NCBI GenBank assembly: GCA_963834935.1
Contig: CAWIDS010000001.1
Coordinates: forward strand, 301,500 to 365,499
DNA length: 64,000 bases
Direction of reading: 5' to 3'
From: Candidatus Nomurabacteria bacterium
GTDB taxonomy: Bacteria > Patescibacteriota > Minisyncoccia > Phycocordibacterales > CALRBL01
The notes beneath the pieces were generated by a model. That model ran no database searches and was not told the DNA's origin. It saw nothing but the letters and a program-made list of their open reading frames with translations. Positions within the stretch are counted from its first letter, which is position 1; each line of letters opens with the position of its first letter. This document shows positions 13,681-48,379 of the stretch, piece after piece. The translations under genes were made by a program, and so were the position numbers.

Positions 13681-14211
13681 TTAATCGGCGTTGGTATAGA
13701 CGTTCTGCACCTCGTCATTCTCTTCGAGCTCGTCCACAAGCGAGCCGAGTGTTTCGAGATCCGTGTCGGAGAGTTCAATAGTGGATTTCGGATGCCAAGC
13801 GCCTTCTTTTTTCTCGAAGGCCCAAAGCACGCTGCCAATTCCAGCAAGGGTAAAGCCGCTCTTTGAGAGAATATGTTTTATTTCAGCGGCGGCTTTGTTC
13901 CTGTTGCCCGTCATCGCTTCGATGATCACCGCTACTCCGCCTGGGCCATAGCTTTCATAGATGATGGTCTCCAATTCTTTTTCGTCAGATAAGCTTCCTT
14001 TCTTGATAGCGCGCTCGATATTGTCAGATGGCATATTCACCTCCCTTGCCTGCTTGATGGCGAATTGCAGATTGGCGGCATTCCTGTCTCCGCCAGCTTT
14101 TTTCGACTCGACGGAAATAAGCCGGGCAAGCTTGGTGAATATTTTGCTCTTCTTGGCGTCAGTGGCCTCCTTCTGCCTTTTTATCTTTGACCACTTATTG
14201 TGTCCGGACAT
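13681..14211 (-). CDS. yebC: YebC/PmpR-family transcriptional regulator (short form)
   Basis: [15 protein letters not shown]-terminus diagnostic of YebC family; classic ruvC-yebC-ruvB neighbourhood. Confidence 0.85.
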
Positions 14212-18261: not shown

Positions 18262-19365
18262 CTACTTATTCATAGGCATGACAAGGTAAAAAAAGCTTTT
18301 ATTCCCGACTCCTTTTATGATAAGGGGTTTATTCAAGCCATCAAAAAGCAAGGAAACACTGTCGGAATCTATGGATTGGAAGCAATCAAAAATATTCTTG
18401 TAGTTGAAGCTTATTTGCAAATCTTCTCCCTCAAGAGATCCTGAAAGGAGGGTAACATTCTCACCAACATCGGTATTTTTGGTCTTTATTTCCATTTTCT
18501 TGTAAGTAGGGGAAACGGAAACCACCACCCTATTGAACGAATCTGAAAAAACATGAGCTAGTTTGAGTGCGTTGAGAAAATCTTGTTTCAATACCACTGC
18601 TTCAGTCTTTGATTCCTTGGGAATAATCTGCTTATATGAAGGGAAATTACCCTCAACTACCCTTGAAATGAGATAGAAATCATCAGAAGTGAAGGAAATC
18701 TGGTTTTTATCCAGACAAACCTTTATTTCCTCATCTTTTTCCTCAAGAATGCGGCAGATATCGGAAATATTCTTAGAAGGGATTAATATTTGATCAAAAT
18801 CAAGCTTTTCTTTAGTTTCTATCTTTTTTTCAGCAAGACGGAAGGAGTCAGTAGCTACAAAAACAAGGTTCTTGTCCTCGGGATAAATATAAACACTTGA
18901 AAGCTCGGGTTTGATTGTTGATATAGAGGCACAATAAGCGACAGAACGGAGCCCTTTGCAAAAGTCCTTGGAATTGATAGAAAACTCCTTACCGGCGTTT
19001 ATACGAGGTATGAGGGGAAACTCTTCAGAGGCTTGCAGCTTGATAGAAGATGATGATTTGTCGGACGAAACCATTAAAAGATCGTCTTTTCTTTCAAATT
19101 TAAGGCTCTTTTCCTTATCAAGGTTTGAAACGAAATTGCCTAAAGTCTGAGCAAGGACCACGGCCACACCCTCCTTTTCCAATTTTACAGGTATGGATAT
19201 CTCTATTCCTAGATCAAGGTTGGTTGATTTGATGATAAGTGAAGAATCCTTACCTTCCAAATAGACGCATTTCAGAATCTGATTAGATATAGAGCCCTTT
19301 CCTGCTATTTTTTCAGCTTTGGAAAAGGCTTGAGAGAAGCGATCTTTAACTGATTCGAATTTCAT
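18262..19365 (-). CDS. dnaN: DNA polymerase III beta subunit (sliding clamp)
   Basis: 367 aa, three-domain clamp architecture, directly downstream of dnaA. Confidence 0.9.
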   Translation of the reverse strand: MKFESVKDRFSQAFSKAEKIAGKGSISNQILKCVYLEGKDSSLIIKSTNLDLGIEISIPVKLEKEGVAVVLAQTLGNFVSNLDKEKSLKFERKDDLLMVSSDKSSSSIKLQASEEFPLIPRINAGKEFSINSKDFCKGLRSVAYCASISTIKPELSSVYIYPEDKNLVFVATDSFRLAEKKIETKEKLDFDQILIPSKNISDICRILEEKDEEIKVCLDKNQISFTSDDFYLISRVVEGNFPSYKQIIPKESKTEAVVLKQDFLNALKLAHVFSDSFNRVVVSVSPTYKKMEIKTKNTDVGENVTLLSGSLEGEDLQISFNYKNIFDCFQSIDSDSVSLLFDGLNKPLIIKGVGNKSFFYLVMPMNK

Positions 19366-19601: not shown

Positions 19602-20948
19602 TTACAAGAGGAGTTTCAACTCCTCTATTTCTTGAAGAAGGGTTCCGTCAACCTTCAGATCCTTTTTAATCTTGTCGCAAGAATGTATTACGGTGGTGTG
19701 ATCCCTTCCTCCTAATTTCTGTCCGATTGAAGGGTAAGATATGTTGAATATCTCTCTCAGAAGGTACATAAGCACTTGTCGTGGTTTAACCACTTCTTTT
19801 TTTCTTGATTTATCATAAATGCTTTCTTCCTCAATATTGTAAAAGCCAGAGACTATTTTAGTGACTTCTTTGATTGAGAGGTTCTTTACTGGCCTTTTAT
19901 TCACTTTTATAAGATTCTTTATCTCATTAAGCAACGGTTCTTTTCCTTTCGTCTCCATATAATGGACGATATTGTTGAAAGCCCCCTCAATTTCGCGGAT
20001 ATTACCTTCTATGTTGGCGGCAACAAACTCGATTATGGGGGTGCTAAGGGAAATGTTGTTCATCAAAGCCTTCTTTTTGACTATTTCAAGGCGTGATTCG
20101 TAATCAGGTTCAGGAATATCAACGATCATTCCAGCCACAAAGCGTGATTTAAGGCGATTTTCAAGGTTTGGTATGTAATTAGGATGAATATCCGAAGAAA
20201 AGATGATTTGTTTGTTGTTGTCATAGAGATAATTAAACAAATGGAAGAGTTCTTCTTGGGTTTTCTCCTTGCTGAAGAGGAATTGGATGTCATCCATAAT
20301 AAAGACATCGTATTTGCGGTATTTTTCCTTGAAAAAATGCATTTTATTCGCTTGGAGACAGTCGACCATCTCTTGGGAGAAGCGTTCTGAGGTAATATAG
20401 AATATTTTTTTTACCGATCCGGTGCTTTTTATGTGATTTCCGACTGCTTGCATGATGTGTGTCTTGCCCAAACCTGTCTTTCCATAGATGAAGAGAGGGT
20501 TGTAAGCTACTGGCTTGTTTATTATTGCTTGGCAAGCAGAGTAAGCGAGCTCGTTGAATGGCCCTACGACAAAAGTATCAAAAGTGTAACGTGGATTGAG
20601 ATTATCCTCCTTATTTACTGCTAATTTATCCAAAGGAAGCTCTCTTGTGTTTTTTGGTTGGGAGTTTTCTTTCTTTATTGAAGAGGCAAGCTCACTCTTT
20701 TGCTTGTCTGACACTGCATAAACAATAGAGCGCACGGATGGATCAAGATTTCGGAGAAGCTTCAGGAAAATATTGTTGTATTTATCCACAAGCCATGAAA
20801 TAACAAACGGATTAGGTACTCCAATGGTGATAACCCCCTCTTCCCTCTTTAGAATATGGGTATCTTTAAACCAAGTGTTGAATGAACCGAGAGATACAGA
20901 CAATTCTATTTCAACCAAAACGCTTTCCCATAGTTTTTTATCGTCCAT
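19602..20948 (-). CDS. dnaA: Chromosomal replication initiator protein DnaA
   Basis: 448 aa; AAA+ Walker [17 protein letters not shown]-terminal DNA-binding helix-turn-helix ([17 protein letters not shown]). Confidence 0.95.
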
Positions 20949-21026: not shown

Positions 21027-21161
21027 ATGTCACGAACATACCAACCAAAGAAAAGAAAGCGAGCAAAGACCCATGGATTTCTTGTAAGGCAGAAGACAAA
21101 GACCGGAAAAAAGGTCGTAGCTCGACGCCGACAAAAAGGAAGAAAAAAGCTAGCTGTTTAG
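21027..21161 (+). CDS. rpmH: 50S ribosomal protein L34
   Basis: [30 protein letters not shown]... 44 aa from ATG at 21027. Confidence 0.9.
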
Positions 21162-21166
21162 ACTTT

Positions 21167-21478
21167 GTGTTCTCAAAAAACCAACGAATTAAAAAAGCCG
21201 ACTTCGAAGATATCTTAAAAAAGGGGAAAAATTCAAACAAACCCCTATTTTCGTTGGTTTTTTTGCCTGGAACAGGTTTGAGGTGTGCAGTTGTAGCCTC
21301 GAAAAAGGTCTCAAAAAAGGCTGTCATCAGGAATAGGAATAAGCGCCGGGTAAGGGATCTTCTTAAAAAAATCCTAAAAGAAAAAAATAAAGGCTCATAT
21401 ATTATCTTTATCAAGAAAGACCTTGCTGAAATTCCCCACCTTTCAATATCCAAAGAGTTGGAATCCATGCTAGACTAA
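21167..21478 (+). CDS. rnpA: RNase P protein component
   Basis: 103 aa, GTG start, basic protein directly after rpmH; conserved RNR-motif region (NRNKRRVRD). Confidence 0.8.
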   Translation: MFSKNQRIKKADFEDILKKGKNSNKPLFSLVFLPGTGLRCAVVASKKVSKKAVIRNRNKRRVRDLLKKILKEKNKGSYIIFIKKDLAEIPHLSISKELESMLD

Positions 21479-21488
21479 TCAACATCTT

Positions 21489-22217
21489 ATGTTCATAGCC
21501 ACCTTTTTCGGACTTTTTTTCTACAATCCACTTTACAACGGCCTTGTCTTGCTTCTTTCTTACCTCCCTTCTCCTGACATAGGCTGGGCGGTCATTATTT
21601 TTACCGCTTTCATCAAGCTTTTGCTTTTCCCTCTCTCAAGGCAGGCTGTCCGTACTCAGATGAAGCTTAAGGAGGTAGCTCCCGAGCTTGAAAGGATAAA
21701 AGAGCAATATAAGGATGAAAAAGAGAAGCAAGCCAAGGAAATGATGCTTGTCTACCAGAAAAATGACATAAATCCTTTCTCAGGATTCCTTCTCGCCTTG
21801 ATCCAGATCCCAATCATCCTCGCCCTCTACTTCATCTTCCTTAAGGGGGGACTTCCGGTCATAAATGCCAAGATACTCTACTCTTTCGTGAAGATTCCGG
21901 CCAACATAAACACTCATTTCCTTAATCTGATAGACGTAAGCAAGCCTCAGATAGTGCTTGGCATCCTCGCCGGCATCAGCCAATATGTACAGGTTCAGTT
22001 CTCAGTTCCGCCCATCAAGAAAGTCGATAACCCAGGCTTCAAGGACGACCTCGCACGCAGTATGAACATGCAGATGCGCTATATACTCCCCTTCTTCGTC
22101 TTCCTTATCTCATTCAAGGTCTCAGGAGCGGTCGCTCTCTACTGGATAACGGGAAATCTCTTCACTATCGGACAGGAATTATATATGCGAAAGCATCTAA
22201 AGAATAAGAAAGCTTAG
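21489..22217 (+). CDS. yidC: Membrane protein insertase YidC/Oxa1 (short form)
   Basis: 242 aa, 5 TM helices, conserved rpmH-rnpA-yidC order. Confidence 0.85.
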   Translation: MFIATFFGLFFYNPLYNGLVLLLSYLPSPDIGWAVIIFTAFIKLLLFPLSRQAVRTQMKLKEVAPELERIKEQYKDEKEKQAKEMMLVYQKNDINPFSGFLLALIQIPIILALYFIFLKGGLPVINAKILYSFVKIPANINTHFLNLIDVSKPQIVLGILAGISQYVQVQFSVPPIKKVDNPGFKDDLARSMNMQMRYILPFFVFLISFKVSGAVALYWITGNLFTIGQELYMRKHLKNKKA

Positions 22218-23410
22218 ATCTTGAGGTTCCAAAGGGTAAGGTCTCTCTTATTCATGAAAAGAAGGTAATCTTCGTCGGGAGAAAGTTTTGGATTGATCAC
22301 GTCGATTTGGACACCTCCCTCATTCTGGAGATTTGCTACATTGCTGGTGTTTCCAGTTAATGCGTCAATTGTCTCTATATTGTCGTTGAAGAAGACTTTT
22401 CCTTGATACCATACATCTGGATACACTCCGTTGGGAATGCTTGAGGTGACGGCACAGTAAGCCAAAGAAGGCATCTTTACAGACCATACGCATTTATCAG
22501 GTATCAAAGGACTTGAAAGAGGGTTTTCTACTCCTGTCCTTATATTCAATATGCCGGAAACCAAAATGTCATTCTTATTTTGCGAATAGATGGCGTATTT
22601 TGCATCAGGCGAGACCGATACCACAAGGCCGTTGCGGGCACTCAGAAGCTCTGTCATCGCTTTTGTCTTTATGTTATAGAGGTAGCTCAGGTTCTGAGTC
22701 TTTGCCGAAGGCGCAGTTGTCAGAAGAGCGATGCCGCTGCTTACCATCTGGACGTTCCATTTTTCAACAGCGCTTGAAAAGACAATGCTTTTCTTTGCTG
22801 GGAAGGAATAAAGTGATCCTTGCGCCCCATTCGGAGTGCTTTCGATGCCGAAATAGCTGTCTTTGGCTGGAGAAAGAGATAGTGAGCTTATTTCCGATGG
22901 AAGGAATATTCCAGTCGTCGAAGAATTGCTTATTGAGCCGATAAAAGTCTCTATTTTTTCAGTTGCATCGTCAAGCGTCCTGAAAATGACGTTATTGCCG
23001 CCCTTTCCTATGTATGCCTCATACACTTTGGGAATGGTAGTATTCGAAATCTTGCTTATAGCAAGGTTGTCCGGAGCAGTCTGGAAGATGTTTCCTGTAG
23101 CCCGATCGACGTATTCGATGCCAGTGAGTTTTGTGGTGAGCGTAATGAAGTCACCCCCCGCAACCGGCGTGGTAGTGATCTGTCGGAGTCTGGGAATAGA
23201 TGTTGAAGAGGTGCTTGTCGAGATTATTGCCAAAGTCGAAGAAGAAAGTATCGTGCCGGTAGTGTCTACAAGCTGTCCTGTGGCAGTTACTGAAGAAGGG
23301 GTGGGTTTTGATACTTTAGTATTAGTGAGATAGAAATATCCTCCGACAAGCGCCCCCAATACCAGTATGAATGCGATAAGGATTACGGCTGTAAGATACT
23401 TTCGTGACAT
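22214..23410 (-). CDS. Membrane-anchored Thr/Ser-rich protein with probable beta-propeller domain (hypothetical)
   Basis: 398 aa; N-terminal TM helix, long beta-rich ectodomain; first... last gene of the T4SS-like locus. Confidence 0.55.
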   Translation of the reverse strand: MSRKYLTAVILIAFILVLGALVGGYFYLTNTKVSKPTPSSVTATGQLVDTTGTILSSSTLAIISTSTSSTSIPRLRQITTTPVAGGDFITLTTKLTGIEYVDRATGNIFQTAPDNLAISKISNTTIPKVYEAYIGKGGNNVIFRTLDDATEKIETFIGSISNSSTTGIFLPSEISSLSLSPAKDSYFGIESTPNGAQGSLYSFPAKKSIVFSSAVEKWNVQMVSSGIALLTTAPSAKTQNLSYLYNIKTKAMTELLSARNGLVVSVSPDAKYAIYSQNKNDILVSGILNIRTGVENPLSSPLIPDKCVWSVKMPSLAYCAVTSSIPNGVYPDVWYQGKVFFNDNIETIDALTGNTSNVANLQNEGGVQIDVINPKLSPDEDYLLFMNKRDLTLWNLKI

Positions 23411-23442
23411 GTATATATTATATACTAAATAAAATTTTATTT

Positions 23443-24399
23443 TTATTCTCCTCTATAAAGTGGACCCCAATAATGATTCTTTTGTGTCCCAGTAATACTA
23501 CCTGTATCACTGATTTGATTTTTTAATATTATGATAGCTGCTTGAGTGTTATATTTAGGATCATCTATTATTTGTTGTGGAGTAACTCCGTATTTTGCTG
23601 CAAGGCCTTGCACTGCGTTATCTCCAACACTAAGAGAGTATAAACCTTCTGAAGAAAAGTTTGAACTGCCATCTTGAGAATGTGCCGTAGTATTATCACT
23701 TGGATTAAAGCCAGATTCGCTATTTGCAATATTTGCGAGCAAGCTCACATATCCCTGCGCTGTTACTGTCCCGTCTGGAAAATATTTTGCTGCATCTGAA
23801 GGGCTAAGGTTTAAAATTCCCGAATCTTGTATTTGTTGGAGCGTATAAGCATTCATATCTGTAGGAAGCCCATTTGCACCGTCTGTAGGAAAATCTGTGC
23901 CTGATTGGGTGCCGTCTGCTATGTCTCCGCTTCCGTCCCCAGGAGAAGTTCCATCCGAACCACTCGCCCCGACATTATAACCAACATTTGTTACTTGGAT
24001 CGGAATAGGTGTTACTAATACAGACGTTATATTTAAATTGCTTCCTATAAGCCTCGGATCGACGAATTTCAAGATGACATAAGAGCCTAATGCGACCAAT
24101 AAGCCGAGAAGGGCAGCATTGATACGGTCCTGGCCTTCGGTTTTTTTCCCCATCGCATCGCTCGACATGTATTCGATACCCCCAACGACGATCATGAGGA
24201 CCGCAAGCGCACTGCAAAGGGCGATGCCAAGGGCGTACATTGAATTCAGATATTGGCTGAGGGAATTGCTACTGCTTATATCTACAGGATTAGTAACATA
24301 ATTAGAAATAGGCGCTAAGGGCACGTAGCTTTGAGCAAGAGCGATGAAAGGAGAAATCATTATTAAAGCGAGGATTGCGAATAAAAGAGTTTTTTTCAT
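23443..24399 (-). CDS. TrbC/VirB2-like pilin fused to C-terminal SLT/VirB1-like lytic transglycosylase-like domain
   Basis: Signal peptide, then two hydrophobic helices separated by charged loop (YALGIALCSALAVLMIVVGG / INAALLGLLVALGSYVILKFV) as in conjugative pilins; C-terminal ESGFNPSD...EGLYSLSVGDNAVQGLAAKYG resembles SLT ES-x-FNP...GLMQ core. Confidence 0.45.
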   Translation of the reverse strand: MKKTLLFAILALIMISPFIALAQSYVPLAPISNYVTNPVDISSSNSLSQYLNSMYALGIALCSALAVLMIVVGGIEYMSSDAMGKKTEGQDRINAALLGLLVALGSYVILKFVDPRLIGSNLNITSVLVTPIPIQVTNVGYNVGASGSDGTSPGDGSGDIADGTQSGTDFPTDGANGLPTDMNAYTLQQIQDSGILNLSPSDAAKYFPDGTVTAQGYVSLLANIANSESGFNPSDNTTAHSQDGSSNFSSEGLYSLSVGDNAVQGLAAKYGVTPQQIIDDPKYNTQAAIIILKNQISDTGSITGTQKNHYWGPLYRGE

Positions 24400-24400
24400 A

Positions 24401-25429
24401 TTAGAAATTTATTTTTACCGATCCGGTGGCGCCTTGGAGGATTCTCGCTGAATTCTCGAGAATTGCCTCGATCACCGAGCTTCCCTTCTGGTTGGTTGAA
24501 TTCCTGAAAGTGGCATAGTTCTGATTTTCAGCCTGGGCAATAGGATTTCCGTTGATAGACCATGAATATTTAAGTGTCGGATCGCTTTTTAATACCGCGC
24601 TCGCATAGTATGGATAGGCGCCGACAGTGACTTCGGAATCAGTCATTTGGAAATCATTTGCTCCAAGCTCAGTATTGAAAAGGGTTCCGTACAAGGGATT
24701 TTTCTCATAGAACATCATCTCAGGCTCTTCCGGGGAAACTAACATCGAGCCTGTGCCGGTAATGCTTCCGTCCAAAGAAGATACGTCTACTTGCACCAAG
24801 ACGTCTTTTCCGAGGATGTCTTCAGTATAAGAAAGGGTGTTTTTACCGTAGCCAGAAAGGCTTCCCTGCACCGTGCCATCGATTGTCCATTTATAGATAA
24901 GGTTTTTAGGATTTACGCTTGCTCCGCTTGGCGTGAAGAGGTTAGGCATGGCTATGAAAGTGATATCCCCTTCCTTGGTAAAGATAGCCTTTCCTTTATA
25001 AAAAGGAGGAGTATAGCCTGAAGCTTCATAGATGATTGGAACTTCCTGCGAAGAAACGCTTGCCGTCTTTATGATGTCCGGGCTGCCGTCTGAAGGAGTG
25101 ATGTCGGCTGAGACGTTCTGAACGACTCCTTTATCCCCAGCTGTGACTGAAAAAGTGGTAAGGCCGGTATCTTGCTGGACAACTTTTCCGTTCACTGACC
25201 AAGAAATAGAGTCGGCGTTCAGGTCAGTTCCATAAGCAGCCAAGGTGAAGGTGACCGTATCGCCAGGATTAGGATTGGTCGGCGTCACGTCCAATGTCAC
25301 CTGCTGCTGGATGTCGCCTGATTGGATCGGATCATAACTTTGTGCTGAGCTTTTTTGTGCAAAGTAAGAGAAACATACGAAAGTAAAAACAATTAACAAA
25401 AAAACAAAGAGAATTGAACTTTTTTTCAT
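24401..25429 (-). CDS. Secreted beta-rich protein (hypothetical, Ig-like repeats)
   Basis: 342 aa, signal peptide, repetitive Thr/Ser/Gly-rich beta-sandwich-like segments. Confidence 0.55.
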   Translation of the reverse strand: MKKSSILFVFLLIVFTFVCFSYFAQKSSAQSYDPIQSGDIQQQVTLDVTPTNPNPGDTVTFTLAAYGTDLNADSISWSVNGKVVQQDTGLTTFSVTAGDKGVVQNVSADITPSDGSPDIIKTASVSSQEVPIIYEASGYTPPFYKGKAIFTKEGDITFIAMPNLFTPSGASVNPKNLIYKWTIDGTVQGSLSGYGKNTLSYTEDILGKDVLVQVDVSSLDGSITGTGSMLVSPEEPEMMFYEKNPLYGTLFNTELGANDFQMTDSEVTVGAYPYYASAVLKSDPTLKYSWSINGNPIAQAENQNYATFRNSTNQKGSSVIEAILENSARILQGATGSVKINF

Positions 25430-25469
25430 CGCCTTAATTATATACCTATTTTTTTACAAAATCTAACCC

Positions 25470-26324
25470 TCACAAAACATTTGCAAACTTATAACCTACA
25501 ATACCATTAAAAGGTCTTATACCCGCATTATGTTTATTCCAAGCAGCCATAAGCACCGGATCACTTTTATCATCGTTACTAATACTTCCATTTCTCATTA
25601 TATCTGCTGCTTTTGATAACTTTATATTATCCTCTCTTGTTCTATTCGATTTTTTATTTAATTGGTCTAAGGCATCATTGCTAGATTGCTGATATTCTCG
25701 CATTCTTTTATTTTCTGCTTCTGCTGCAAGGAATTCTCTTTCTGTGGTATTCCGGTCATTACGAATATTTAGTGTTTTAATCTCTTCTTTTTCCTCCTCA
25801 ACCTCTGATTGTTGGAGCTGTTTATCTTGTACTTGTTTAGACTGTTCCTGTTGCTGCCTATCTCGAACCATCTGTAACCGCGTCATTTTCTGCTGCTGAT
25901 CCTGCTGGACTTGTATCTGCTGCGCTTTTATCTGGACTTCATTCTGCTTTTCCCATTTCTTGTTGTTCTGAACGGCAAGCCACCAGTTGTAACAATGATC
26001 AAGGCTCCAGAATGGCAGTGCATCGAGGTCGGGGATTTCTTCCCCAAGAAAAGTAGCGACCATTCCTAGGACTTTCATGGTCATATCATCAGAACCACTT
26101 CCAACCTCTCCTCGTATCCATAGATAAAAAGAGTAGGATATCTCTACTCCAATATCTATAAAGCGGTTTATGATTACTCCCGATTCAAAAAAAAGGTCCA
26201 AAAGAAACTGAACAAGGTCAATTATTAGGAATGCTCCGAGAACCAAACCCCACTCCGTGTTGCTTATTTTGCTTTTGGTGATCTGGGCCATAGGTTTACA
26301 GCTTGCGAGCCATATCCTCTTCAA
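25470..26324 (-). CDS. Membrane protein with Gln-rich coiled-coil C-terminal half (hypothetical; start uncertain)
   Basis: 284 aa ORF, 2 TM helices then QQIQVQQDQQQ... coiled coil; immediately downstream of VirB4-like gene. Confidence 0.45.
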   Translation of the reverse strand: MKRIWLASCKPMAQITKSKISNTEWGLVLGAFLIIDLVQFLLDLFFESGVIINRFIDIGVEISYSFYLWIRGEVGSGSDDMTMKVLGMVATFLGEEIPDLDALPFWSLDHCYNWWLAVQNNKKWEKQNEVQIKAQQIQVQQDQQQKMTRLQMVRDRQQQEQSKQVQDKQLQQSEVEEEKEEIKTLNIRNDRNTTEREFLAAEAENKRMREYQQSSNDALDQLNKKSNRTREDNIKLSKAADIMRNGSISNDDKSDPVLMAAWNKHNAGIRPFNGIVGYKFANVL

Positions 26325-28117
26325 GCTCTGCTCGCGCTTTCTTCATTGCGAGGACTTGGGCAGGATCCGAGGTGATGATCTGGTCTTCTGTATACGAGGC
26401 GATAATCTTGATGGCAACATGCTTGAGGCCGGCGAAGAAGATTCCCTCCCCTACATCCGATTCAAGAAGAAGATATTTTTCCTCATCGGTTAGGTTGAAG
26501 GTTTTTTGCACTGCATCGATTGAAGAAGGTGATTGCTTGAGAAGAAGCTGGATCGAGGAGTTGGTGATGATCGGCAATCCGTAAGGTGATTTCAGGAAGT
26601 CCTCGACGTCCTGAGTAATGGTAGCAAGGCCGAGATAGTATTTTCGTCCTCGTTTTGCCAAGCCGAGAAGGAATGAGGCAGTGTCTTCTGATTTCATCAT
26701 CCACCATGCCTCGTCGATGACCAGAAGCCTTTTCTTGAGCTCTTTTCGGATGGCATTCCAGATGAAGTGGGTGACGATATACATTGCTACAGGCTTGAGT
26801 TCGTCTTCCATGTCTCGCACTGAGAAGACGACAAATTTCTTGTTAATGTCGACATTTGTCGGCTGATTGATGAAGCCTGCCCATGTTCCGCGAGTATATT
26901 TTGAGAGTTTTGTACCAGACATTCCGCTCCTTCCATTCCCGCAAGCACCATTTCGAAGTCGGACATCAAAGGCGGCTCGATATCAGTGAAATTCGAGTCG
27001 GGAGTAATATCTTTGAGTGCGTAAGTTTCGCTAATAGCTTTGTCGATGATGGCATCTTCTTCAGGGCTTAGTCCACCGAGCATGATGCGGAAAAGGCCGA
27101 CGAGGTTGACGATATTCGAGCGGAGGACGTCAGCATCTGATTCATCTGGCCGAGGATGAGGAAGGTCGAACGGATTGATGTGGTGCTCGGAGGTAGAGGA
27201 GATGTTGAAATAGCGGCCACCGGTAGCTTCAGCCATGTATTCATATTCCTTTTCAGGGTCGATGACGATGACATCGGCATCGAACATGAGTGTTCGGAGG
27301 ATTTCGAGCTTGGTAGCGTATGATTTTCCGGATCCGGCTTTGGCGAAAGTCACGGAATTGTAGTTTTCAAGCGAGAAGCGGTCGAAAAGGACAAGCGTTG
27401 AATTGTGGCGGTTGATGCCGTAAAGAATTCCTTTGTCAGAGGTAAGGTCGAAAGAAATGAATGGAAAGAGGCTTGAGAGAGCGGTGAAGAATTGAGCTTC
27501 GAGTGGATTTCCAGAAGGTCGTCTGCGATAGGTAGCGTGCTCTTGAAAGCCTTGTTCCTGCTGGAAAAGCGCGGGCTTGAGATAGACAAGCTTTGCTTCG
27601 AGGATTGATTTCATTTCCGATTCGATTTTATCGAGTTCAGCGCTCGAATCTCCATAAAGTGAGATATAAAGACCGACATCGAAGATCCTTTCTTGTGCCT
27701 GCTGCAGATCGTCGCGAAGCTTCTCAAGGTCTTGATAGGCAGTATCAAGCATCGGATCGCGGACCAAGCCCTTCTCTTCTCTGATGTGGATCTGGCTTTG
27801 CACTTCAGCGACTTTCTTTTGAAATTGGCGAAGCATTTTCGTGTTTCAATGGGATGGATGAAAATGGAAATATCAAAAACTTTGTCGAGGTTGATGATCG
27901 GCGAGAACCAGTTGTCGCTCAGATAGCGCGGATAAGAAATCACAAAGAAGCTCCTCACAATCTTGTTGCCGAGGTTTATTTCTTTCGAGCTAATTTTCAG
28001 CGCAGAAGGCGAGATGATATCTTTCAGGTCAAGCTCTTGGGACTGATAAAGCTCGCTTGGCAAGCTTGTCAGGTTCTCATTCTTTTGTTTTTTTGTAAAA
28101 ATATCGAGTAGTCCCAT
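26296..28117 (-). pseudogene. virB4: VirB4/TraC/CagE-family type IV secretion ATPase, interrupted by two frameshifts
   Basis: Three overlapping frames (27611..28117, 26787..27836, 26296..26922) that read through as one protein: Walker A AKAGSGKSY, Walker B LLVIDEAWWMM, GLATITQ; shift 1 at the T4 run 27837-27840, shift 2 near 26920-26945. Confidence 0.75.
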
Positions 28118-28118
28118 G

Positions 28119-28619
28119 TTATTTAGTATGAATCGGCTTCTCTATCTCTCCAGGGTTGAATGACTTGTAGAAAAGCTCGATCAGCTCCTCATTTTCAAGC
28201 TCAACCATCCTGATGCCGCAGCGCGTAAGTCCTTCTTCGACCACCGCCACCCTTTGCTCGAGCTGGCCGATGTTTTCTTTGAAAGTGACATTCTTGTCTT
28301 CGGCATTTCCTTTCTTCGGCCAAAAACTGGGGGCGTATAAGGAATCACTACAAAGAAATTCTTGGTCATGATATTGCTGCTTTCGGTAAGCGTCCTGACG
28401 AATTCGACATATTGCCTGACTTGGAGCTTCATCAGGTCGGTTGTCTGTTCCGTTTCCCTTTTTTCGAGTATGTCGAGATAAGGCTTGATGTTGGAGGCGG
28501 CGCGATTGGACGCATATTTGTACTGAAAAGTTCAGGGAATTGAGGAAATTTTGGAACTGGCCGATGATTGCCGCCTGCTCGTCAGATGATTTCAAAGCGA
28601 AGTTGAGTGATGAAGCCAT
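28119..28619 (-). pseudogene. Hypothetical ~170-aa protein upstream of VirB4, two frameshifts at homopolymer runs
   Basis: Protein-like translation switches frame twice (…NSLNF|QYKYASNRAASNIKPYLDILEK…VVIPYTPPVF|WPKKGNAEDKNV…ELENEELIELFYKSFNPG); junctions in TTTT and CCCCCAGTTTTT runs. Confidence 0.45.
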
Positions 28620-28746
28620 AACGATTGCCCTAAAGCGATCCGTATTCTAAGCACAACGAAATTATCTTTTATTTCCTCAATAGGGATGAATTCCTGAGTG
28701 GCTTTGGTTTGTGAGGCGAGTGACATATCGTGCTAAGTATACCCTA

Positions 28747-29196
28747 TTAGACTTTAATATTTAAGAGATCATTAAGGCTTTTTTCTTCTCCATCGTATTT
28801 TTTCGAAGCAAGGCTGCCTTTTATATCTTTTAAACTGCTTCTTCTTGTTGTAGGAATGGAGATGATAGCTGTCGGATCATATGACATGTCGATTTCCTTC
28901 GTGGGTACCGGCTTATTTTCTTTTTTCCAGATGTAAAGCTTGTTTTTGGTGAAAAAAAGCACGGCAGCTTGGACTTCGTCAAGGAATGGTCTGTTGTTAG
29001 GCTTGTAAAAAGTCAGGGCGACAAAGAAAGCAAGTACAGGCAAGGCAAGAGGGATGCCGATGAATGCGGGCGTCACGAAATGGTAGATGGTATAGGAAAT
29101 GCCGAGCCCTCCCGCAAGATAGATGAATTCCTTGAACGAAAGAGAAAAGAAAATCTTATCCTCGATCTCGATGAATTGTGGAACCTGGAACTTCAT
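28747..29196 (-). CDS. PrgI/VirB3-like small two-TM membrane protein
   Basis: 149 aa; MKFQVPQFIEIEDKIFFSLSFKEFIYLAGG... layout matches PrgI/VirB3-type proteins that precede VirB4 in Gram-positive-type T4SS. Confidence 0.45.
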   Translation of the reverse strand: MKFQVPQFIEIEDKIFFSLSFKEFIYLAGGLGISYTIYHFVTPAFIGIPLALPVLAFFVALTFYKPNNRPFLDEVQAAVLFFTKNKLYIWKKENKPVPTKEIDMSYDPTAIISIPTTRRSSLKDIKGSLASKKYDGEEKSLNDLLNIKV

Positions 29197-29212
29197 TTGG
29201 ACTAGTATAGCA

Positions 29213-30964
29213 TTATTCCGAAACTACCCGAAGGACTTCTTCGATAGTAGTCACACCCTGCACCGCCTTGAATACCCCGTCTTCTATCATGGTAAGCATT
29301 CCTTCTTTCTTTGCCTGCGCTTCTATTTCATCTGACGTCGTTCCTTTCATGACTAATGCCTTGATAGGTGCGCTAACCTTGAGAATTTCATGTATGCCGA
29401 TCCTTCCCGCATAGCCATCTTCCGATTCAGCGCTTTTAATAGGCTTGTAGAACGGGATTGTCTGCCACTCCGCTTTTTCATCGACTATCTTTCTTTCTTC
29501 AGGAACTCCAGAACCCGGGCAATGTCGACTTTCTTGGAAAGCATATCAAGCTCATCTTTGGTGAGAAGGTATTTTTCCTTGGTGACAGCCAGTTTCCTGA
29601 TAAGGCGCTGGCCTATGATACATTCAAGGTCGAGACAAGAGGAATGGCTCTATGTGCATGTCGATGAAGCGTGGAATGGCGCCGGCGGCTGAATTGGTGT
29701 GAAGGGTCGAGAGTACAAGGTGTCCAGTGAGCGAGGCGTTGATGGCGAGGGATGCCGTTTCATTGTCGCGGATTTCCCCCACCATGATGATATCCGGGTC
29801 CTGCCTGACAAGGGAGCGGAGTCCCGAGGCGAAAGTAAAACCGATTTCTGGCTTTACTTGGGTTTGATTGATCCTCTTCATCTGGTATTCGACAGGATCC
29901 TCAATCGTGGAGATATTCACATCGGCTGTATTCAGGATATCTAGAACGGTATAGAGGGTCGTCGTCTTTCCTGACCCTGTCGGACCAGTAGTAAGGATCA
30001 TTCCAGTCGAGAGTTTTGTCGCTTCATATATCCTTTCTAATCCTTCTCCATGGAAGCCGAGATGCTCGAGGGTAAAGCCGGAAACATTTTCCCTAAGCAA
30101 ACGCATTACTGTCTTTTCTCCGTAGTACACAGGCAGGATAGACACTCGAAAAGAGACATTTTCCCCATTCATTTCGATCTTGAAACGGCCGTCTTGGGGA
30201 AGCCTTTTTTCGTCGAGCTTGAGGCTCGAAAGGACTTTGATGCGGGCTGTGATGGAATCGCCTGCATTTTTTGGCAAGATCATGGCGTCGTGAAGTATTC
30301 CATCTATGCGGTAGCGTACTACCACTTCATTTTCTTGAGGTTCGATATGAATATCCGAAGCGTTCTGGATGATGGCATGTTTCAGGAGCGTATCTACGAC
30401 TCGGACTACCGGCAAGTCCTCGGCCATCTTCTGAAGGTCTTTGATGTTGAGTTTGCCGTCCTTGTTCTGATCCCCGACTGATTTTATGGAGACTGATTCC
30501 TTCTGGATGATATCACCGAAGTCAGCCTTGAGGCTTTTCTGGTATTGGAGGATTGCCGACTTCATCGAATTCACGTCAGTAAGGCGTGGAAGAATCTTCA
30601 AGCCCACTTTCTTCTTGACGAAATCGAGTGCGCTCAAGTCATCGGTGTCGAGCATTGCCACCTCAAGCGTCTTATCATCTTTCTTGAAGCCGATGATATT
30701 GTGCTTGCGGGCAATCGGCTCGGGAATGAGAGAGAGAACACTGAAATCTATCTTTTGATCTTTGAGATCCACGAATGGGATCCCAAGTATGTAGGCTTGA
30801 ATTTTTCGGAGATCTTCCTCGGTAATCAGGCTTTTTTGCAGCAGAATATCACCCATGTCTACCCCCTTTTTCTCTGATTCTTCGCGTGCAGTAGCAAGTT
30901 CTTTTTCGGAAACCAATCCCGAATCCATTATGAACTTTTCAAATTGAGCTTTGTTTATGAACAC
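29213..30964 (-). pseudogene. Second PilB/GspE-family secretion ATPase, C-terminal region disrupted by >=3 frameshifts
   Basis: 446-aa frame with Walker A GPTGSGKTTT, Asp/His boxes stops at LLSRP*; the C-terminus continues in two other frames (…IIGQRLIRKLAVTKEKY… then …YKPIKSAESEDGYAGRIGIHEILKVS…GVTTIEEVLRVVSE*) homologous to the PilB C-terminus. Confidence 0.75.
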
Positions 30965-30989: not shown

Positions 30990-32075
30990 CTAGTTGATTG
31001 GATTGATTGGAATTTCAAGTTGAATATTTGAGGTACTTCCTACACTGTCTGTAACCGTTACTGTTGCATTATATATAGCGAAAGGATCTGCCATTGAGGG
31101 TGTTCCTGATATCAATCCGCTGTTTGAAAGGCTTATGCTGTTATTTCCTAAAAATTGACCAGCAGTTACAACCCATGTATAGGGAGGAACGCCGCCTGTT
31201 GCGCTTAGTTGAAAACTATATGATTGATTAACCTTACCCGATGGTAACTCTCCAGCACTTCCTCCAAGCATAGTCATGCCCGCAGTACTAATAGCAAGAG
31301 GTCCTGTATATGATCCTGAACCTTTTTGGCAATAAAGGAGAGATATGTAGGGGTTCATAATATCCATTGCTTGTTGGGGTCCTACTGCATTATCGCTTGT
31401 ATCGAATATGACATCACGGGTAAGCGCGCTGTATGCGTCCTGGTTTGCCTGATCATCTATAAGAACATATGGAGTTCCTTTTTGGGAACTGTCATCTCCG
31501 CGCTCAAACCCATTTATCTGAAGTTTGAATGGAGCTATCTCTGCAGGAACCTGCAGGTGTGTTTCTGCACCGCCTGTGTTTCCAAGAGCCCTTTGGCTCA
31601 ATGAGACTCCATTCTCGTCTGTATTTCCACTTCCCGTTCCGATGATCGTCCGTCCTGAAGCAGGCGCAAATTGGCTCCAGCCGGTAGGGCATGAAGTAAG
31701 ATTGAAAGCCATGACTGCTCCGGTAGGGACTGAAGCAGAAGCCTGCCATGTTCCATTTCCTTGGCTGTCTGAAGTAAGAACATTTCCTGAAGCAGCATTA
31801 AGAGGAATCTGAATACCATTTCCGAAATACCCACTACCAGCAGTAATAAAATTATTTGATGTTAATGTTCCTGCAATATTTAATAGGCTTCCATCTATCA
31901 CAGAGCCATTTTTTGCTTGAGGAATAGCACCAGTGTTGAGAGGAGCATCAACGTTATTGGTCGGAGGGTTGACTGGTGCTGCTGTCCATGTTCCTGCTTG
32001 GACACCGATAACCCCCAATACAAGAATAGAGACAATAACAAGGTTTTTTATGATCTGAATTATTTTTTGTTGCAT
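30990..32075 (-). CDS. Secreted protein with phage tail-collar domain and Ig-like domain
   Basis: 361 aa; signal/TM anchor; GAVMAFNLTSCPTGWSQFAPASGRTIIGTGSG...LGNTGGAETH fits tail-collar (tail fiber) domain consensus; PSGKVNQSYSFQLSATGGVPPYTWVV fits putative Ig domain. Confidence 0.55.
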   Translation of the reverse strand: MQQKIIQIIKNLVIVSILVLGVIGVQAGTWTAAPVNPPTNNVDAPLNTGAIPQAKNGSVIDGSLLNIAGTLTSNNFITAGSGYFGNGIQIPLNAASGNVLTSDSQGNGTWQASASVPTGAVMAFNLTSCPTGWSQFAPASGRTIIGTGSGNTDENGVSLSQRALGNTGGAETHLQVPAEIAPFKLQINGFERGDDSSQKGTPYVLIDDQANQDAYSALTRDVIFDTSDNAVGPQQAMDIMNPYISLLYCQKGSGSYTGPLAISTAGMTMLGGSAGELPSGKVNQSYSFQLSATGGVPPYTWVVTAGQFLGNNSISLSNSGLISGTPSMADPFAIYNATVTVTDSVGSTSNIQLEIPINPIN

Positions 32076-32079
32076 ATAA

Positions 32080-32430
32080 TTATTGATTATTTAATAAGCT
32101 TATAATATCCGCTTTCTGTCTCTCCGATAACGTCTCATTTTTTTGAGCTGTTAATTGTTTTATGATCTGATTTTTTTTAATAGTGGTAAGACTGCTGCTT
32201 GCTGAACCCTGGCTATTCAATTCTGCAATTATTTGGCTTTTTTGTTCTTCTGTGAGGATATTCTTATTGGTTTTGGTGGGGGCATCTTTTATTCTATGAT
32301 CATTTATGCTTGTAACACCTAAAATGATAAAGGAAGTTAATAATGATAATATCGAAAGCCATGCAAGGCGTTTCATTTCATGCTTACCTTTTAGCTTACC
32401 AGTCGCGTTTTGGTTTAATTTGTAAGACAT
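32080..32430 (-). CDS. Small secreted/anchored protein with internal Q-rich repeats (hypothetical; alt start MKRLAWL at 32376)
   Basis: 116 aa; repeated QKSQIIAELNSQ / KKNQIIKQLTAQ / RQKADIISLLNNQ units. Confidence 0.4.
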   Translation of the reverse strand: MSYKLNQNATGKLKGKHEMKRLAWLSILSLLTSFIILGVTSINDHRIKDAPTKTNKNILTEEQKSQIIAELNSQGSASSSLTTIKKNQIIKQLTAQKNETLSERQKADIISLLNNQ

Positions 32431-32437
32431 TTTTTAA

Positions 32438-33712
32438 TTAAAATTCTTTTGCCTGGCCCGAAACATTGCATGTCGCAGTGTTTGAAACTGCGTTTTGTCC
32501 TGCCGCATTCGTAACGCTCAGTTTATAATGCGTAGTATACATGATATTATTCCTTGTTGTTGATCCTGAATTCAATGGACCATATTCGTTCTGCAATATG
32601 TTTCCATCAGACACCCCGCCATCCTTTATGAGGGTGCTCGTTCCTGTTGTCGGGTCAAAATTGGTTATAGACGACCATGATAGCGTGCATTGTCCACCAG
32701 AGGCGATGGTCGCCGGACTTGCAACAAGAGGTCCGATTACCGGACCTGTTCCAGTTCCCGGAGGAGGACATGAGGCTGGAACCGTTATTGATTCAGTATT
32801 TGAATAAGGAGAACATTCTGCAACAACACAAGCGGCGACTGAATAGGTATAAGTAGAGCCTGGCTGGCCCAAGGAATCTGTGAAAGAAGTGACTCCTATG
32901 TTGCTGAAGTTGCTGATTGAACTGTCAGGATTCTCTTTTTGTATATTATAGCTTGTTGCCCCGGAGATGTTTGTCCAGGAGAGGCTGATGCTGCAATTAT
33001 TGCCGCCGCTAAGCGATGGTGGAGAAAGCGTAGGTGCACCAAGACCGTTCGGACAGACGCCATTCGCTGGGGCGCTTCCGTCTGGACAAGGAGCTACACA
33101 GCTGCCGGTCGTCGTATCATTCACTTGTCCTGCCGGGCAAGTATTATTGGTAAGAGAGGCTCCAGACATGTCTATCCACCCTATGTTTGTAGCGCCCCAC
33201 GCATAGCCAATCAAGGGAGTAGATGTAACTCCAGGTGTACTCAAGCTTACTCCGTAACCTGTTCCTCCGAGACTGATCCATCCGTCCCATCCATCTGTCC
33301 TGTCAGCGCTATTGCAATCCTTGTTTACTGTCCCTGAGCATGCTCGGGCCCAACCGGTAAAGGTGTTTCCGCTTAAGATGGCATTTACGCCTAAGGTACC
33401 TCCTCCAGTTGGGAATCCCGAAAGTCCTCCGAATTTTATCCAGCCGATATTAGGCGACCATCCATAACCGCTGACTAATCCTGTCGAACTGACTGTTACT
33501 TGGCTCATATCTATCCAGCCAATCGTGCTTGACCAGGCATATCCGGAAAAGGAACGAGTCGTGTCTGCTTGGGAGATCTTTACTTTATTTGTTTGGCTGA
33601 AAAGATTCAGGCTGAGGAGAGTTATGACTATTACTAAAAGAAAAATCCAAAAAGAGACACTTTTTTTCATATATACATAATTATATGTCTTGTATACGAA
33701 TGTGTACAGCAA
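32438..33712 (-). CDS. Secreted repeat protein (GYxWS..IGWI repeats + FN3-like domain; hypothetical adhesin)
   Basis: 424 aa (probable start MKKSV at 33670); three GY(A/G)W(S/G)xxIGWI(D/K) repeats, Cys-rich segment, FN3-like SISLSWTNISGATSYNIQKE...STYTYSVAAC. Confidence 0.55.
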   Translation of the reverse strand: MLYTFVYKTYNYVYMKKSVSFWIFLLVIVITLLSLNLFSQTNKVKISQADTTRSFSGYAWSSTIGWIDMSQVTVSSTGLVSGYGWSPNIGWIKFGGLSGFPTGGGTLGVNAILSGNTFTGWARACSGTVNKDCNSADRTDGWDGWISLGGTGYGVSLSTPGVTSTPLIGYAWGATNIGWIDMSGASLTNNTCPAGQVNDTTTGSCVAPCPDGSAPANGVCPNGLGAPTLSPPSLSGGNNCSISLSWTNISGATSYNIQKENPDSSISNFSNIGVTSFTDSLGQPGSTYTYSVAACVVAECSPYSNTESITVPASCPPPGTGTGPVIGPLVASPATIASGGQCTLSWSSITNFDPTTGTSTLIKDGGVSDGNILQNEYGPLNSGSTTRNNIMYTTHYKLSVTNAAGQNAVSNTATCNVSGQAKEF

Positions 33713-40040: not shown

Positions 40041-40068
40041 TTGGTAATTTGCTAGGATATCTCGTACT

Positions 40069-40139
40069 GCAGGTATGGTTTAGTGGTAGAACACGTCCTT
40101 GCCAAGGACGAGACGAGAGTTCGATTCTCTCTACCTGCA
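40069..40139 (+). tRNA. tRNA-Gly (anticodon GCC)
   Basis: Acceptor GCAGGTA/TACCTGC, anticodon stem CGTCC/GGACG with loop TTGCCAA, T-arm GAGAG-TTCGATT-CTCTC; no CCA encoded. Confidence 0.85.
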
Positions 40140-40149
40140 CAAAAAATAA

Positions 40150-40469: not shown

Positions 40470-41741
40470 TTAGCTCATATTGAAAATCGAGCAACAAAAA
40501 ACCTCCGACACGTTCCCACTTGCGTGGTACTTGTGCCGGAGGTAGGTGCGTTTACGCTTCCGGGAATACTTCCGGGAATAACTGAGCCTCCAGCTCCTGT
40601 AGGTTGCTGGGAATGACCTCTTCCAAGGGTTCAGGAAGAGAAGGTACCGACTTTTCGCCGCCTCGTTTCGCCGCCTCGTTTCGATGCTGCTGATGACGAA
40701 CGCTACGGCAGCGAGCCATTCCGAGCCCGTACCACGGGCACGGGTTGGCTCGCGTCGAACTGCAGATGTTATTCTCGCAGTCGGTTTGACGGCTGCGTTC
40801 GAAACCTCCGCTGATGCAGATACGCACGATTTCGACAATCCTTTCGTAAGGGATCTTCGATTTTGGACGGGCATGCGTCTTCGTTCCATTAGCAACAATG
40901 GTTACCTCCCCATCGGCACGAGTAACCCCATACCAGCAGTCTTTGTTGCTGATCTGCCCCCCAATAGCGAGGTCTTTCCAGGCAATGTTTCCCAAGTTCC
41001 CTTCCTCACTCCGAAGCGCACAGATGATGTCAAGCGCTGCTTTACGGAGTTTCTTACGAGGATCGAAGTAGATTTGGGTCCCTTCTTCCCCGAACTTGAT
41101 TAAGACATTGATCCTCCCTCCGTGGTCGGACCGGGCGTAGGCCACCGTTTCCATAGAATCCGATTCGATGTACCCGAACAGCAAAGGCTGATCGCTGACA
41201 CCTTTCACCCCCTCCACCTGAATCTTCAGGTCGTATTCGTCTTTGACGACCACATCGATGAAGCGCTTTTGTTGCGTGTAGTACTCTCCCAGCAACATCA
41301 GCGTAACGTCGATCGACTTCTGAGGGTCGTTAGGGTAGTTGTTGTTATACAACTTCACGATTGCCTCCAAATCCATGAAGCCCAGGTTCGGTTGCGTGTC
41401 AGCGTTCAATGAATAGGAGAGGAGTTTTCTAAAAACTTCCTGATCCGCAAGTCCCATGGCCTCAGCCATGAGAATGGCGGTCGATTTCCCTTCTTTTCTC
41501 CCCCCTTCTGCAGCTTGTCATCGAAACGGCCGTGGCCGATTCCGAGTAACAAGTATCCGGCCTTTTCGAACTGCGTCTCAGACATGTTGCCTTGCAACTT
41601 GTTCCAAAACAGCAGTTCCGCCGTTGTTATGCCTGGGAAAACCTTTTCCCCCCCGATGATGCGCGCAAACCAATACGCCAAAATCTCATCGAGATGCGGG
41701 CCCGTGTGGAACACCACATGTTTAACTACTGTCGTTTTCAT
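40470..41741 (-). pseudogene. GC-rich decayed gene of unknown function (three overlapping frames)
   Basis: Frames 41406..41741, 40552..41469, 40470..40898 overlap and read through; composition much GC-richer than flanks; contains 13-bp tandem duplication. Confidence 0.5.
40653..40678. repeat. 13-bp perfect tandem duplication (TTTCGCCGCCTCG x2, partial third)
   Basis: Direct read of sequence; non-multiple of 3 so frame-shifting inside the decayed ORF. Confidence 0.8.
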
Positions 41742-42715: not shown

Positions 42716-42770
42716 ATTGATCTGACAGGGAACATTATATCAGGACTCGTTCCTTACGGGAAAGGTCTAG

Positions 42771-48324: not shown

Positions 48325-48379
48325 AAACAAATTATAACATATTGCAAAAAGGATGCGTTTATGGTAATGTTTCGTGACA

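What the first reader, a model, noticed from the sequence alone, without database searches (positions are those of the whole stretch)
26296..30964. Cluster of frameshifts in VirB4, its upstream ORF and the second PilB-like ATPase
At least seven frame disruptions fall in about 4.7 kb:
- two in VirB4 (one at the T4 run 27837-27840);
- two in the 28119-28619 ORF (at TTTT and CCCCCAGTTTTT runs);
- at least three in the C-terminal 400 nt of the PilB-like gene.

Large genes elsewhere in the window, such as polA and the 1294-aa ORF, are intact. Two explanations fit. One is genuine decay of an accessory machine; an intact pilB paralogue exists at 11480-13192. The other is a consensus problem at homopolymers in a strain-variable region. 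A third, more speculative option is slipped-strand phase variation at the homopolymers.
Basis: seen in the sequence. Interest (0 to 1): 0.6.

Follow-up and report, generated by a model that had tools for sequence, protein, structure and literature searches.

The report
Frameshift cluster, probably an assembly error
Ten or more single-base insertions and deletions break three normally intact, highly conserved secretion-machine genes of a Patescibacteria genome within one 2.7-kb stretch, and the pattern fits a locally poor consensus sequence better than real gene decay.

Summary
At least 10 frameshifts lie in window 26906-29641 (2.74 kb, minus strand): 4 in VirB4, 3 in the upstream gene and 3 in the PilB-like ATPase. 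The upstream gene is a TrsD/TraC-like protein spanning 28119-28726. These genes belong to the known Patescibacteria type IV secretion cluster next to dnaA. They are intact in all 86 related loci examined.

Once the frames are repaired, VirB4 is 85-87% identical over its full length to intact orthologues. No piece contains an in-frame stop. Highly conserved columns are kept as well as in intact orthologues: 2 of 301 differ in VirB4 and 2 of 254 in PilB. There is no excess of unusual residues inside the stretch compared with outside it.

The damage is therefore almost purely indels. It is confined to one physical stretch that ignores gene boundaries, and it mostly avoids the longest homopolymers. 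An eleventh frameshift lies 12 kb away, at about 41509, in an unrelated gene.

The best reading (about 0.7) is local consensus or polishing error in the deposited assembly, a 432,723-nt contig. Genuine recent decay is possible (about 0.2). Phase variation and programmed frameshifting are rejected. Only raw reads can settle it. Interest is low.

The parts
26906..29641 (-). Indel-rich stretch of 2.74 kb that holds all 10 or more clustered frameshifts. It begins inside VirB4 and ends inside the PilB-like gene.
   Evidence: The rate is about 3.7 frameshifts per kb here, against about 0.02 per kb in the rest of the window.
26296..28117 (-). virB4 (T4SS ATPase; 605 aa in relatives), broken into ORFs 26296-26922, 26787-27836 and 27611-28117 by four frameshifts.
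   Evidence: The repaired protein is 85-87% identical to intact orthologues over 99-100% of its length.
26906..26911 (-). VirB4 frameshift 4: 1 nt missing. CAAAACTC is read where orthologues need Q-(K/R)-L.
27471..27484 (-). VirB4 frameshift 3: 2 extra nt (CT) in CCGCTCTCTCAAGC. All 172 orthologues read SSP-LSSLFPF with no extra residue.
27546..27550 (-). VirB4 frameshift 2: 1 extra T (GGC TTT CAAG for GGC TTC AAG). Together with frameshift 3 it puts 22 conserved codons out of frame.
27834..27844 (-). VirB4 frameshift 1: 1 nt missing in ACACGAAAATG. Either the G of a GCG codon was lost or an A5 run became A4.
28119..28726 (-). TrsD/TraC-like gene (PF26593 in relatives; 210-220 aa), broken by three or more frameshifts.
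   Evidence: It is about 70-72% identical to the nearest intact orthologues.
28309..28342 (-). TrsD-like frameshift 3. It lies in a poorly conserved linker that contains C5 and T5 runs, and its exact position cannot be fixed.
28487..28499 (-). TrsD-like frameshift 2: 1 extra nt in CGCCTCCAACATC.
28628..28651 (-). TrsD-like frameshift 1: one +2/-1 event, or two single-base events.
28747..29196 (-). prgI/virB3-like gene, intact (149 aa), inside the indel-rich stretch.
   Evidence: Zero events in 450 nt is compatible with the local rate (P = 0.19).
29213..30964 (-). PilB/GspE-like ATPase (MshEN + T2SSE; 584 aa in relatives). Three 1-nt deletions lie in its last 430 nt, and the C-terminal 90 codons return to the original frame.
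   Evidence: The repaired protein covers T2SSE profile positions 3-370 of 370.
29486..29492 (-). PilB-like frameshift C: 1 A missing (GAAAAG read as GAAAG).
29617..29624 (-). PilB-like frameshift B: 1 nt missing in AAT GT. ATC.
29631..29641 (-). PilB-like frameshift A: 1 nt missing in CTCTTGTCTCG. Orthologues read EPFLLVST.
22214..26324 (-). Downstream T4SS-cluster genes, all read in a single frame: 284 aa, 342 aa, 318 aa (with weak T4SS_pilin and SLT matches) and 398 aa.
41500..41516 (-). Separate frameshift (1 nt missing) that splits a conserved hypothetical gene (40552-41741) into ORFs of 111 and 305 aa.
   Evidence: Homologues of 364-406 aa span both pieces.

Best explanation
The three genes are most likely intact in the organism. 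The frameshifts are most likely consensus errors in the deposited assembly.

A stretch of about 2.7 kb (26906-29641) of the 432,723-nt contig appears to have been called from poor or thin data. Possible causes are a low-coverage or unpolished long-read consensus, or a gap filled from a few noisy reads. This would leave about 0.4% short insertions and deletions while the bases themselves were called correctly.

Shown here: the positions and types of the indels, their confinement to one stretch, the lack of substitution damage, and the intactness of the genes in all relatives.

Inferred: that the cause is technical. The sequencing platform and the read coverage are unknown.
For: 1. **The errors follow a physical stretch, not genes or a functional module.**
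   - All 10 events lie in 2.74 kb. The same PilB gene's first 1.3 kb, the same VirB4's last 0.6 kb and 4 kb of downstream T4SS genes have none.
   - At the inside rate, zero events in those flanks has P = 3e-10. The range test within the 8.75-kb block gives P = 2e-4.
2. **The damage is indels only.**
   - No repaired piece has an in-frame stop.
   - Window mismatches at columns at least 97% conserved are 2/301 for VirB4 and 2/254 for PilB (one of the PilB two is an alignment artefact). That is within the leave-one-out range of intact orthologues.
   - Residues unique to the window are about 2x the orthologue mean both inside and outside the stretch.
3. **The sites are not concentrated at long repeats.**
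   - Only 2-3 of the 10 touch a run of 4 or more bases.
   - All six runs of 6-7 nt keep the frame, or lie outside the three disrupted genes.
   - Insertions (+1, +1, +2) and deletions are mixed.
4. **The genes are under strong constraint elsewhere.**
   - 0 of 86 related loci are disrupted, and all but one of the 240 listed database hits are full length. The exception (P0121) is the window's own 434-aa fragment.
   - The system is conserved across Patescibacteria and essential in Southlakia (PMC12102498).
5. **Another isolated frameshift exists 12 kb away** in an unrelated conserved gene. This is what residual indel noise in an assembly would give.
6. **Frameshifting indels are a known property of long-read consensus sequences**, especially at low coverage (PMC9262707).
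Against: - No reads, coverage or assembly metadata could be examined, so the technical cause is inferred.
- A roughly 200-fold local rise in error rate needs a special cause (a coverage drop, an unpolished patch or a gap fill), and I could not identify one. There is no repeat, no composition shift and no N or ambiguity code.
- The TrsD-like gene has somewhat more unusual residues than most orthologues: 6/49 at conserved columns, of which 3 remain after removing a start-codon alignment artefact and two residues shared with the nearest relatives.
- Three of the four affected or neighbouring products are parts of one machine, which is also what relaxed selection on that machine would hit.
Confidence: 0.7

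Rival explanations
1. Genuine recent pseudogenisation. This population has lost the function of the T4SS core ATPase genes and the adjacent PilB-like ATPase. The indels are real mutations fixed under relaxed selection.
For: - The frameshifts are in the public record.
- They hit three genes that are neighbours and plausibly work together.
- Another real-looking pseudogene-type lesion exists at 41509.
- The TrsD-like gene shows mildly elevated unusual residues.
Against: - Ten indels come with no nonsense codon and no measurable excess of substitutions.
- The events end abruptly within genes and spare the other five genes of the cluster: PrgI and the four downstream genes.
- The sites avoid the longest homopolymers, where natural slippage is most frequent.
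- The system is intact in all 86 relatives and essential in the only tested Patescibacterium.
Confidence: 0.2
2. A localised burst of real mutations. One error-prone repair-synthesis or recombination event over about 2.7 kb introduced many indels at once.
For: - Tight physical clustering that ignores gene boundaries.
- An indel-dominated spectrum.
Against: - No evidence for it beyond the clustering.
- It would inactivate a conserved and probably essential system, so the carrier should be rare in a population consensus.
- It cannot be told apart from a sequencing artefact without reads.
Confidence: 0.05
3. Phase variation at simple repeats, or programmed frameshifting or transcriptional slippage that restores full-length proteins.
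For: A few sites lie in short runs: A4, TTT and a CT repeat.
Against: - There are ten separate sites in three genes.
- Runs are 1-5 nt, far below contingency-locus tracts, and the longer runs in the same genes are in frame.
- There is no shared motif.
- No relative among 86 loci needs a frameshift at any of these positions.
Confidence: 0.02

Closest known systems
Patescibacteria type IV secretion system, related to the monoderm MPF-FATA conjugation machinery (Quinonero-Coronel et al. 2025, PMC12102498)
   Same: - The same gene set and order: PrgI/VirB3-like, TrsD-like, VirB4, then pilin/SLT-like and membrane proteins.
- It lies a few kb from yidC-rnpA-rpmH-dnaA-dnaN.
- The repaired VirB4 is 77-87% identical to Paceibacteria orthologues.
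   Different: - Here VirB4 and TrsD are frame-disrupted.
- A PilB/GspE-like ATPase sits directly upstream. That arrangement is seen only in the nearest relatives (L001/2, L004/5) and in none of the 80 other species within 6 kb.
Frameshift errors in long-read or low-coverage consensus assemblies (e.g. Sereika et al. 2022, PMC9262707)
   Same: Short indels fragment otherwise conserved genes while base identity is retained. A scattered extra event lies elsewhere in the window.
   Different: - Classical nanopore R9 and 454 errors concentrate in long homopolymers. Here most sites are not in runs of 4 or more bases.
- The errors are 200-fold concentrated in one 2.7-kb patch.
- The platform of this assembly is unknown.
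Bacterial pseudogenes formed by frameshift under relaxed selection (as in host-restricted bacteria)
   Same: Multiple frameshifts in neighbouring genes of one pathway.
   Different: There are no nonsense mutations, no substitution excess and no truncating deletions. The boundaries fall inside genes, and other genes of the cluster are untouched.

Membership tests
Patescibacteria MPF-FATA-like T4SS cluster | A VirB4-family ATPase with the P-loop domain. | tested here: met
   PF19044, PF12846 and PF01935 match both the fragments and the repaired protein. The repaired protein is 85-87% identical to proteins annotated as VirB4/TraC.
Patescibacteria MPF-FATA-like T4SS cluster | PrgI/VirB3-like and TrsD-like genes immediately upstream of virB4. 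| tested here: met
   PF12666 matches the protein from 28747-29196. The gene at 28119-28726 is orthologous to PF26593 'TraC-like' proteins of relatives. The repaired window protein itself gave no hit in the local Pfam copy.
Patescibacteria MPF-FATA-like T4SS cluster | Chromosomal location near dnaA/dnaN, rnpA and yidC. | tested here: met
   dnaA is at 19602-20948 and dnaN at 18262-19365. yidC, rnpA and rpmH lie at 21027-22217, as described in PMC12102498.
Genuine pseudogene | The reading frame is disrupted relative to intact orthologues. | tested here: met
Genuine pseudogene | Signs of relaxed selection besides the frameshifts: nonsense codons and excess replacements at conserved sites. | tested here: not met
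   No in-frame stops. Mismatches at conserved columns are 2/301 and 2/254, within the orthologue range. There is no excess inside the stretch compared with outside.
Genuine pseudogene | The lesions are supported by the underlying reads. | not testable with these tools
   No reads or coverage are available. The source record could not be opened.
Phase-variable contingency locus | A long simple-sequence tract (typically 7 nt or more) at the switching site. One tract is enough to toggle the gene. | tested here: not met
   There are ten sites, and runs at the sites are 1-5 nt. Runs of 6-7 nt in the stretch are not frameshift sites.
Programmed ribosomal frameshift or transcriptional slippage | A frameshift site conserved in orthologues, with a slippery motif. 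| tested here: not met
   All 86 related loci encode single-frame genes. The sites share no motif.
Assembly or consensus indel error | Indel-only differences, independent of gene boundaries, with similar events elsewhere in the assembly. | tested here: met
Assembly or consensus indel error | Reads disagree with the consensus, or coverage or quality drops at the sites. | not testable with these tools
   No read data.

The most novel reading that the evidence does not exclude
The indels are real. In that case a natural Paceibacteria population carries a freshly and heavily inactivated origin-proximal T4SS (VirB4, TrsD) together with its PilB-like ATPase. The cause would be either loss of the epibiotic machinery or a single localised, indel-prone repair event. 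That would give a natural knockout of a system thought to be essential for the Patescibacteria lifestyle.
Probability: 0.15. Interest if true: 0.45.

Novelty: not a real feature. Interest (0 to 1): 0.12.

Why it matters
- If the frameshifts are an artefact, the practical message is that this record mis-annotates three core genes as fragments. Gene-content surveys would then wrongly score this genome as lacking VirB4 and TrsD, and the rest of the contig deserves a frameshift scan.
- If they are real, this would be a rare natural loss of the conserved Patescibacteria T4SS, which is essential for epibiotic growth in the only strain tested. That would bear on how dependent these bacteria are on the system.

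Tried and rejected
- **Exact-sequence look-ups** of window proteins to recover the source contig and independent assemblies: PrgI, the 284-aa protein and the 434-aa PilB fragment. All returned nothing. The cluster look-up gave only the contig length and 'NCBI, ENA'.
- **Genome-collection scan.** It returned 80 related species but not the source genome.
- **Metagenome scan** for either allele of the VirB4 +T site. It gave 0 hits, so there is no independent sampling of this population.
- **Repeat collapse** as a cause. The window has no repeats apart from two tRNA-Gly genes.
- **Foreign or chimeric origin of the stretch.** GC and GC3 are the same inside and outside it.
- **A shared sequence motif** (for example a methylation site) at the frameshift sites. 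None was seen by eye.
- **Alternative genetic code.** It is not needed, because the repaired frames contain no stops.
- **Other apparent same-strand ORF overlaps.** Of 9564/10076, 46626/47398 and 6487/7205, Pfam places the first two pairs in different families, so they are separate genes. For 6487/7205 the upstream ORF is a complete polA, but the 6487-7251 ORF has no Pfam match, so that pair is only presumed separate. The fourth overlap, 40552/41406, proved to be a real frameshift.
Full report
**What is in the region.** All genes of interest are on the minus strand.

- The PilB/GspE-like ATPase spans 29213-30964. It matches MshEN and T2SSE, and relatives have a 584-aa protein.
- An intact PrgI/VirB3-like gene spans 28747-29196 (149 aa).
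- A TrsD/TraC-like gene spans 28119-28726. Relatives have 210-220 aa, annotated PF26593.
- VirB4 spans 26296-28117 (605 aa in relatives).
- Downstream are four more cluster genes at 22214-26324. One has weak T4SS-pilin and SLT matches.
- Next come yidC, rnpA, rpmH, dnaA (19602-20948) and dnaN.

This is the arrangement described for the Patescibacteria T4SS. That system is related to monoderm MPF-FATA conjugation systems and often lies near dnaA. Its VirB4, TrsD and PrgI homologues are essential for epibiotic growth in Ca. Southlakia epibionticum (PMC12102498). It is therefore not an accessory machine.

**Checking the observation.** I wrote a frameshift-aware protein-to-DNA alignment and ran it against intact orthologues from related contigs. 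I then inspected every site codon by codon against 75-172 orthologues.

- VirB4 has four frameshifts:
  - 27834-27844: 1 nt missing.
  - 27546-27550: one extra T.
  - 27471-27484: an extra CT in a CT repeat.
  - 26906-26911: 1 nt missing.
- The second and third VirB4 events put 22 perfectly conserved codons out of frame without creating a stop. That is why the ORF list hides them.
- The TrsD-like gene has at least three:
  - 28628-28651.
  - 28487-28499: one extra C.
  - 28309-28342: in a variable linker, position ambiguous.
- The PilB-like gene has three single-base deletions: 29631-29641, about 29617-29624, and 29486-29492. After the third, the original frame resumes.

So there are at least 10 events, all between 26906 and 29641 (2.74 kb). 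Gene fragments 100% identical to the window are on record from a 432,723-nt contig in NCBI/ENA: a 434-aa PilB piece and a 301-aa piece of another gene. The frameshifts are therefore part of the deposited assembly.

**Are the genes intact elsewhere?** Yes.

- All six loci retrieved through two close VirB4 homologues carry uninterrupted VirB4 of about 600 aa, and so do all 80 species-level genomes from the genome scan. The 82 loci that extend far enough upstream also carry uninterrupted TrsD-like genes.
- All but one of the 240 best database hits for VirB4 and the PilB-like protein are full length. The exception (P0121) is the window's own 434-aa fragment.
- The hand-repaired VirB4 is 85-87% identical to them over 99-100% of its length.
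- The repaired PilB-like protein covers T2SSE profile positions 3-370 of 370.

**Where the events are, and where they are not.**

- Orthologues of NusA, pyrophosphatase, trigger factor, RsmE, ClpP, RNase Y, HU, the downstream T4SS genes, YidC, RnpA, L34, DnaA and DnaN all align to the window in a single frame.
- PolA, UvrD, ComM, RuvB, RuvC, the CCA-adding enzyme, the second PilB and others have complete Pfam coverage.
- Within the affected genes, the first 1.3 kb of the PilB-like gene and the last 0.6 kb of VirB4 are clean.
- At the inside rate (3.7 per kb), zero events in the 6 kb of flanking cluster sequence has P = 3e-10.
- Ten uniformly placed events would fall within 2.74 kb of the 8.75-kb gene block with P = 2e-4. 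Within the 4.67-kb three-gene span the figure is P = 0.04.
- PrgI, in the middle of the stretch, escaping is unremarkable (P = 0.19).

The unit that is damaged is a physical piece of DNA. It is not a gene or a functional module.

**What kind of damage.**

- No repaired piece contains an in-frame stop.
- At alignment columns conserved in at least 97% of orthologues, the window differs at 2 of 301 columns in VirB4. In PilB it differs at 2 of 254, one of which is an artefact of my alignment path at the double frameshift. In leave-one-out tests, 37% and 20% of intact orthologues do as badly or worse.
- Residues seen in no orthologue are about twice the orthologue average both inside and outside the stretch. 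This lineage is simply somewhat isolated, and the stretch has no substitution excess of its own.
- The TrsD-like gene is at the high end: 6 of 49 conserved columns differ. One of these is a start-codon alignment artefact and two are shared with the nearest relatives, which leaves three.
If real decay followed that ratio, about 17 mismatches would be expected at the VirB4 conserved columns. Two are observed (P = 1e-5). Only a process with at least as many indels as substitutions fits.
- The sites are not where slippage is most likely. Only 2-3 of the 10 touch a homopolymer of 4 or more bases. The stretch's six runs of 6-7 nt are not frameshift sites.
- Insertions (+1, +1, +2) and deletions are mixed.

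**A further frameshift.** The overlapping ORFs 41406-41741 and 40552-41469 are one gene. Homologues of 364-406 aa span both pieces, and the alignment places a missing base at about 41500-41516. So the window has a low background of frameshifts as well as the dense patch.

**Interpretation.**

- The combination points to a locally poor consensus in the deposited assembly:
  - The damage is indel-only.
  - Its boundaries cut through genes.
  - There are no nonsense codons and no excess replacements.
  - The genes are otherwise under very strong constraint.
  - A stray frameshift lies elsewhere in the window.
- Frameshifting indels are a documented property of long-read consensus sequences, particularly at low coverage or without polishing (PMC9262707). 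I rate this reading at 0.7.
- I could not identify why this patch is worse than the rest. There is no repeat, no composition change and no ambiguity code. The platform is unknown.
- Genuine recent pseudogenisation (0.2) remains possible, because the hit genes are neighbours that plausibly work together and the record really contains the lesions.
- A single localised indel-prone repair event (0.05) would look identical without reads.
- Phase variation and programmed frameshifting are contradicted by the number of sites, the short or absent repeats, and the lack of any counterpart in relatives.

- The count and the general location are right but understated.
- The 'upstream ORF' is the TrsD-like gene and extends to 28726.
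- The homopolymer emphasis is only partly right.
- The claim that the rest of the window is intact has one exception.
- The 'accessory machine' premise is wrong.
- The second pilB (11480-13192) is only 35-37% identical, so it is a different paralogue.

**Verdict.** This is a real property of the sequence but probably not of the organism, so interest is low. The decisive test is read mapping over 26-31 kb and at 41.5 kb.

Noticed in passing
window 40552-41741 (-), frameshift at about 41500-41516: A conserved hypothetical gene with no Pfam match is split into ORFs of 111 and 305 aa by one missing base. Homologues are 364-406 aa and 45-49% identical.
   Followed up: yes
window 29213-30964; loci L001, L002, L004, L005: The PilB/GspE-like ATPase (MshEN + T2SSE) lies directly upstream of PrgI-TrsD-VirB4 only in the window and its nearest relatives. 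None of the 80 other species has one within 6 kb of virB4. This may be a lineage-specific link between a T2SSE ATPase and the T4SS, which lacks a VirB11.
   Followed up: partly
window 13681-14211 (-): The YebC/TACO1 homologue is only 176 aa (usually about 240). Its PF01709 match is split into two stretches, which suggests an internal in-frame deletion of about 60 residues. It is tightly packed between ruvB and ruvC.
   Followed up: no
window 25470-26324 (-): The gene after virB4 is 284 aa here but 156-165 aa in the nearest relatives, and only the first about 150 residues align. The second T4SS-pilin-like gene of L001 (304 aa) has no separate counterpart in the window.
   Followed up: no
window 44401-46571 and 47398-48423: An IS1595-family (ISXO2-like) transposase gene at 45699-46571 lies beside a 1.3-kb stretch with no convincing ORF (44401-45699). 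A tyrosine recombinase gene lies nearby at 47398-48423.
   Followed up: no
window 53288-57172 (+): An intact 1294-aa ORF has no Pfam match at all at E <= 1e-4.
   Followed up: no
window 40068-40145 and 42639-42716: The only long repeat in the window is an 85%-complementary inverted pair formed by two tRNA-Gly genes (GCC and TCC anticodons).
   Followed up: yes
window 30990-33712 (-): Three genes (361, 116 and 424 aa) lie between the PilB-like gene and nusA. They have only weak fn3 and HTH hints and no counterpart at this position in relatives L001 and L004.
   Followed up: no
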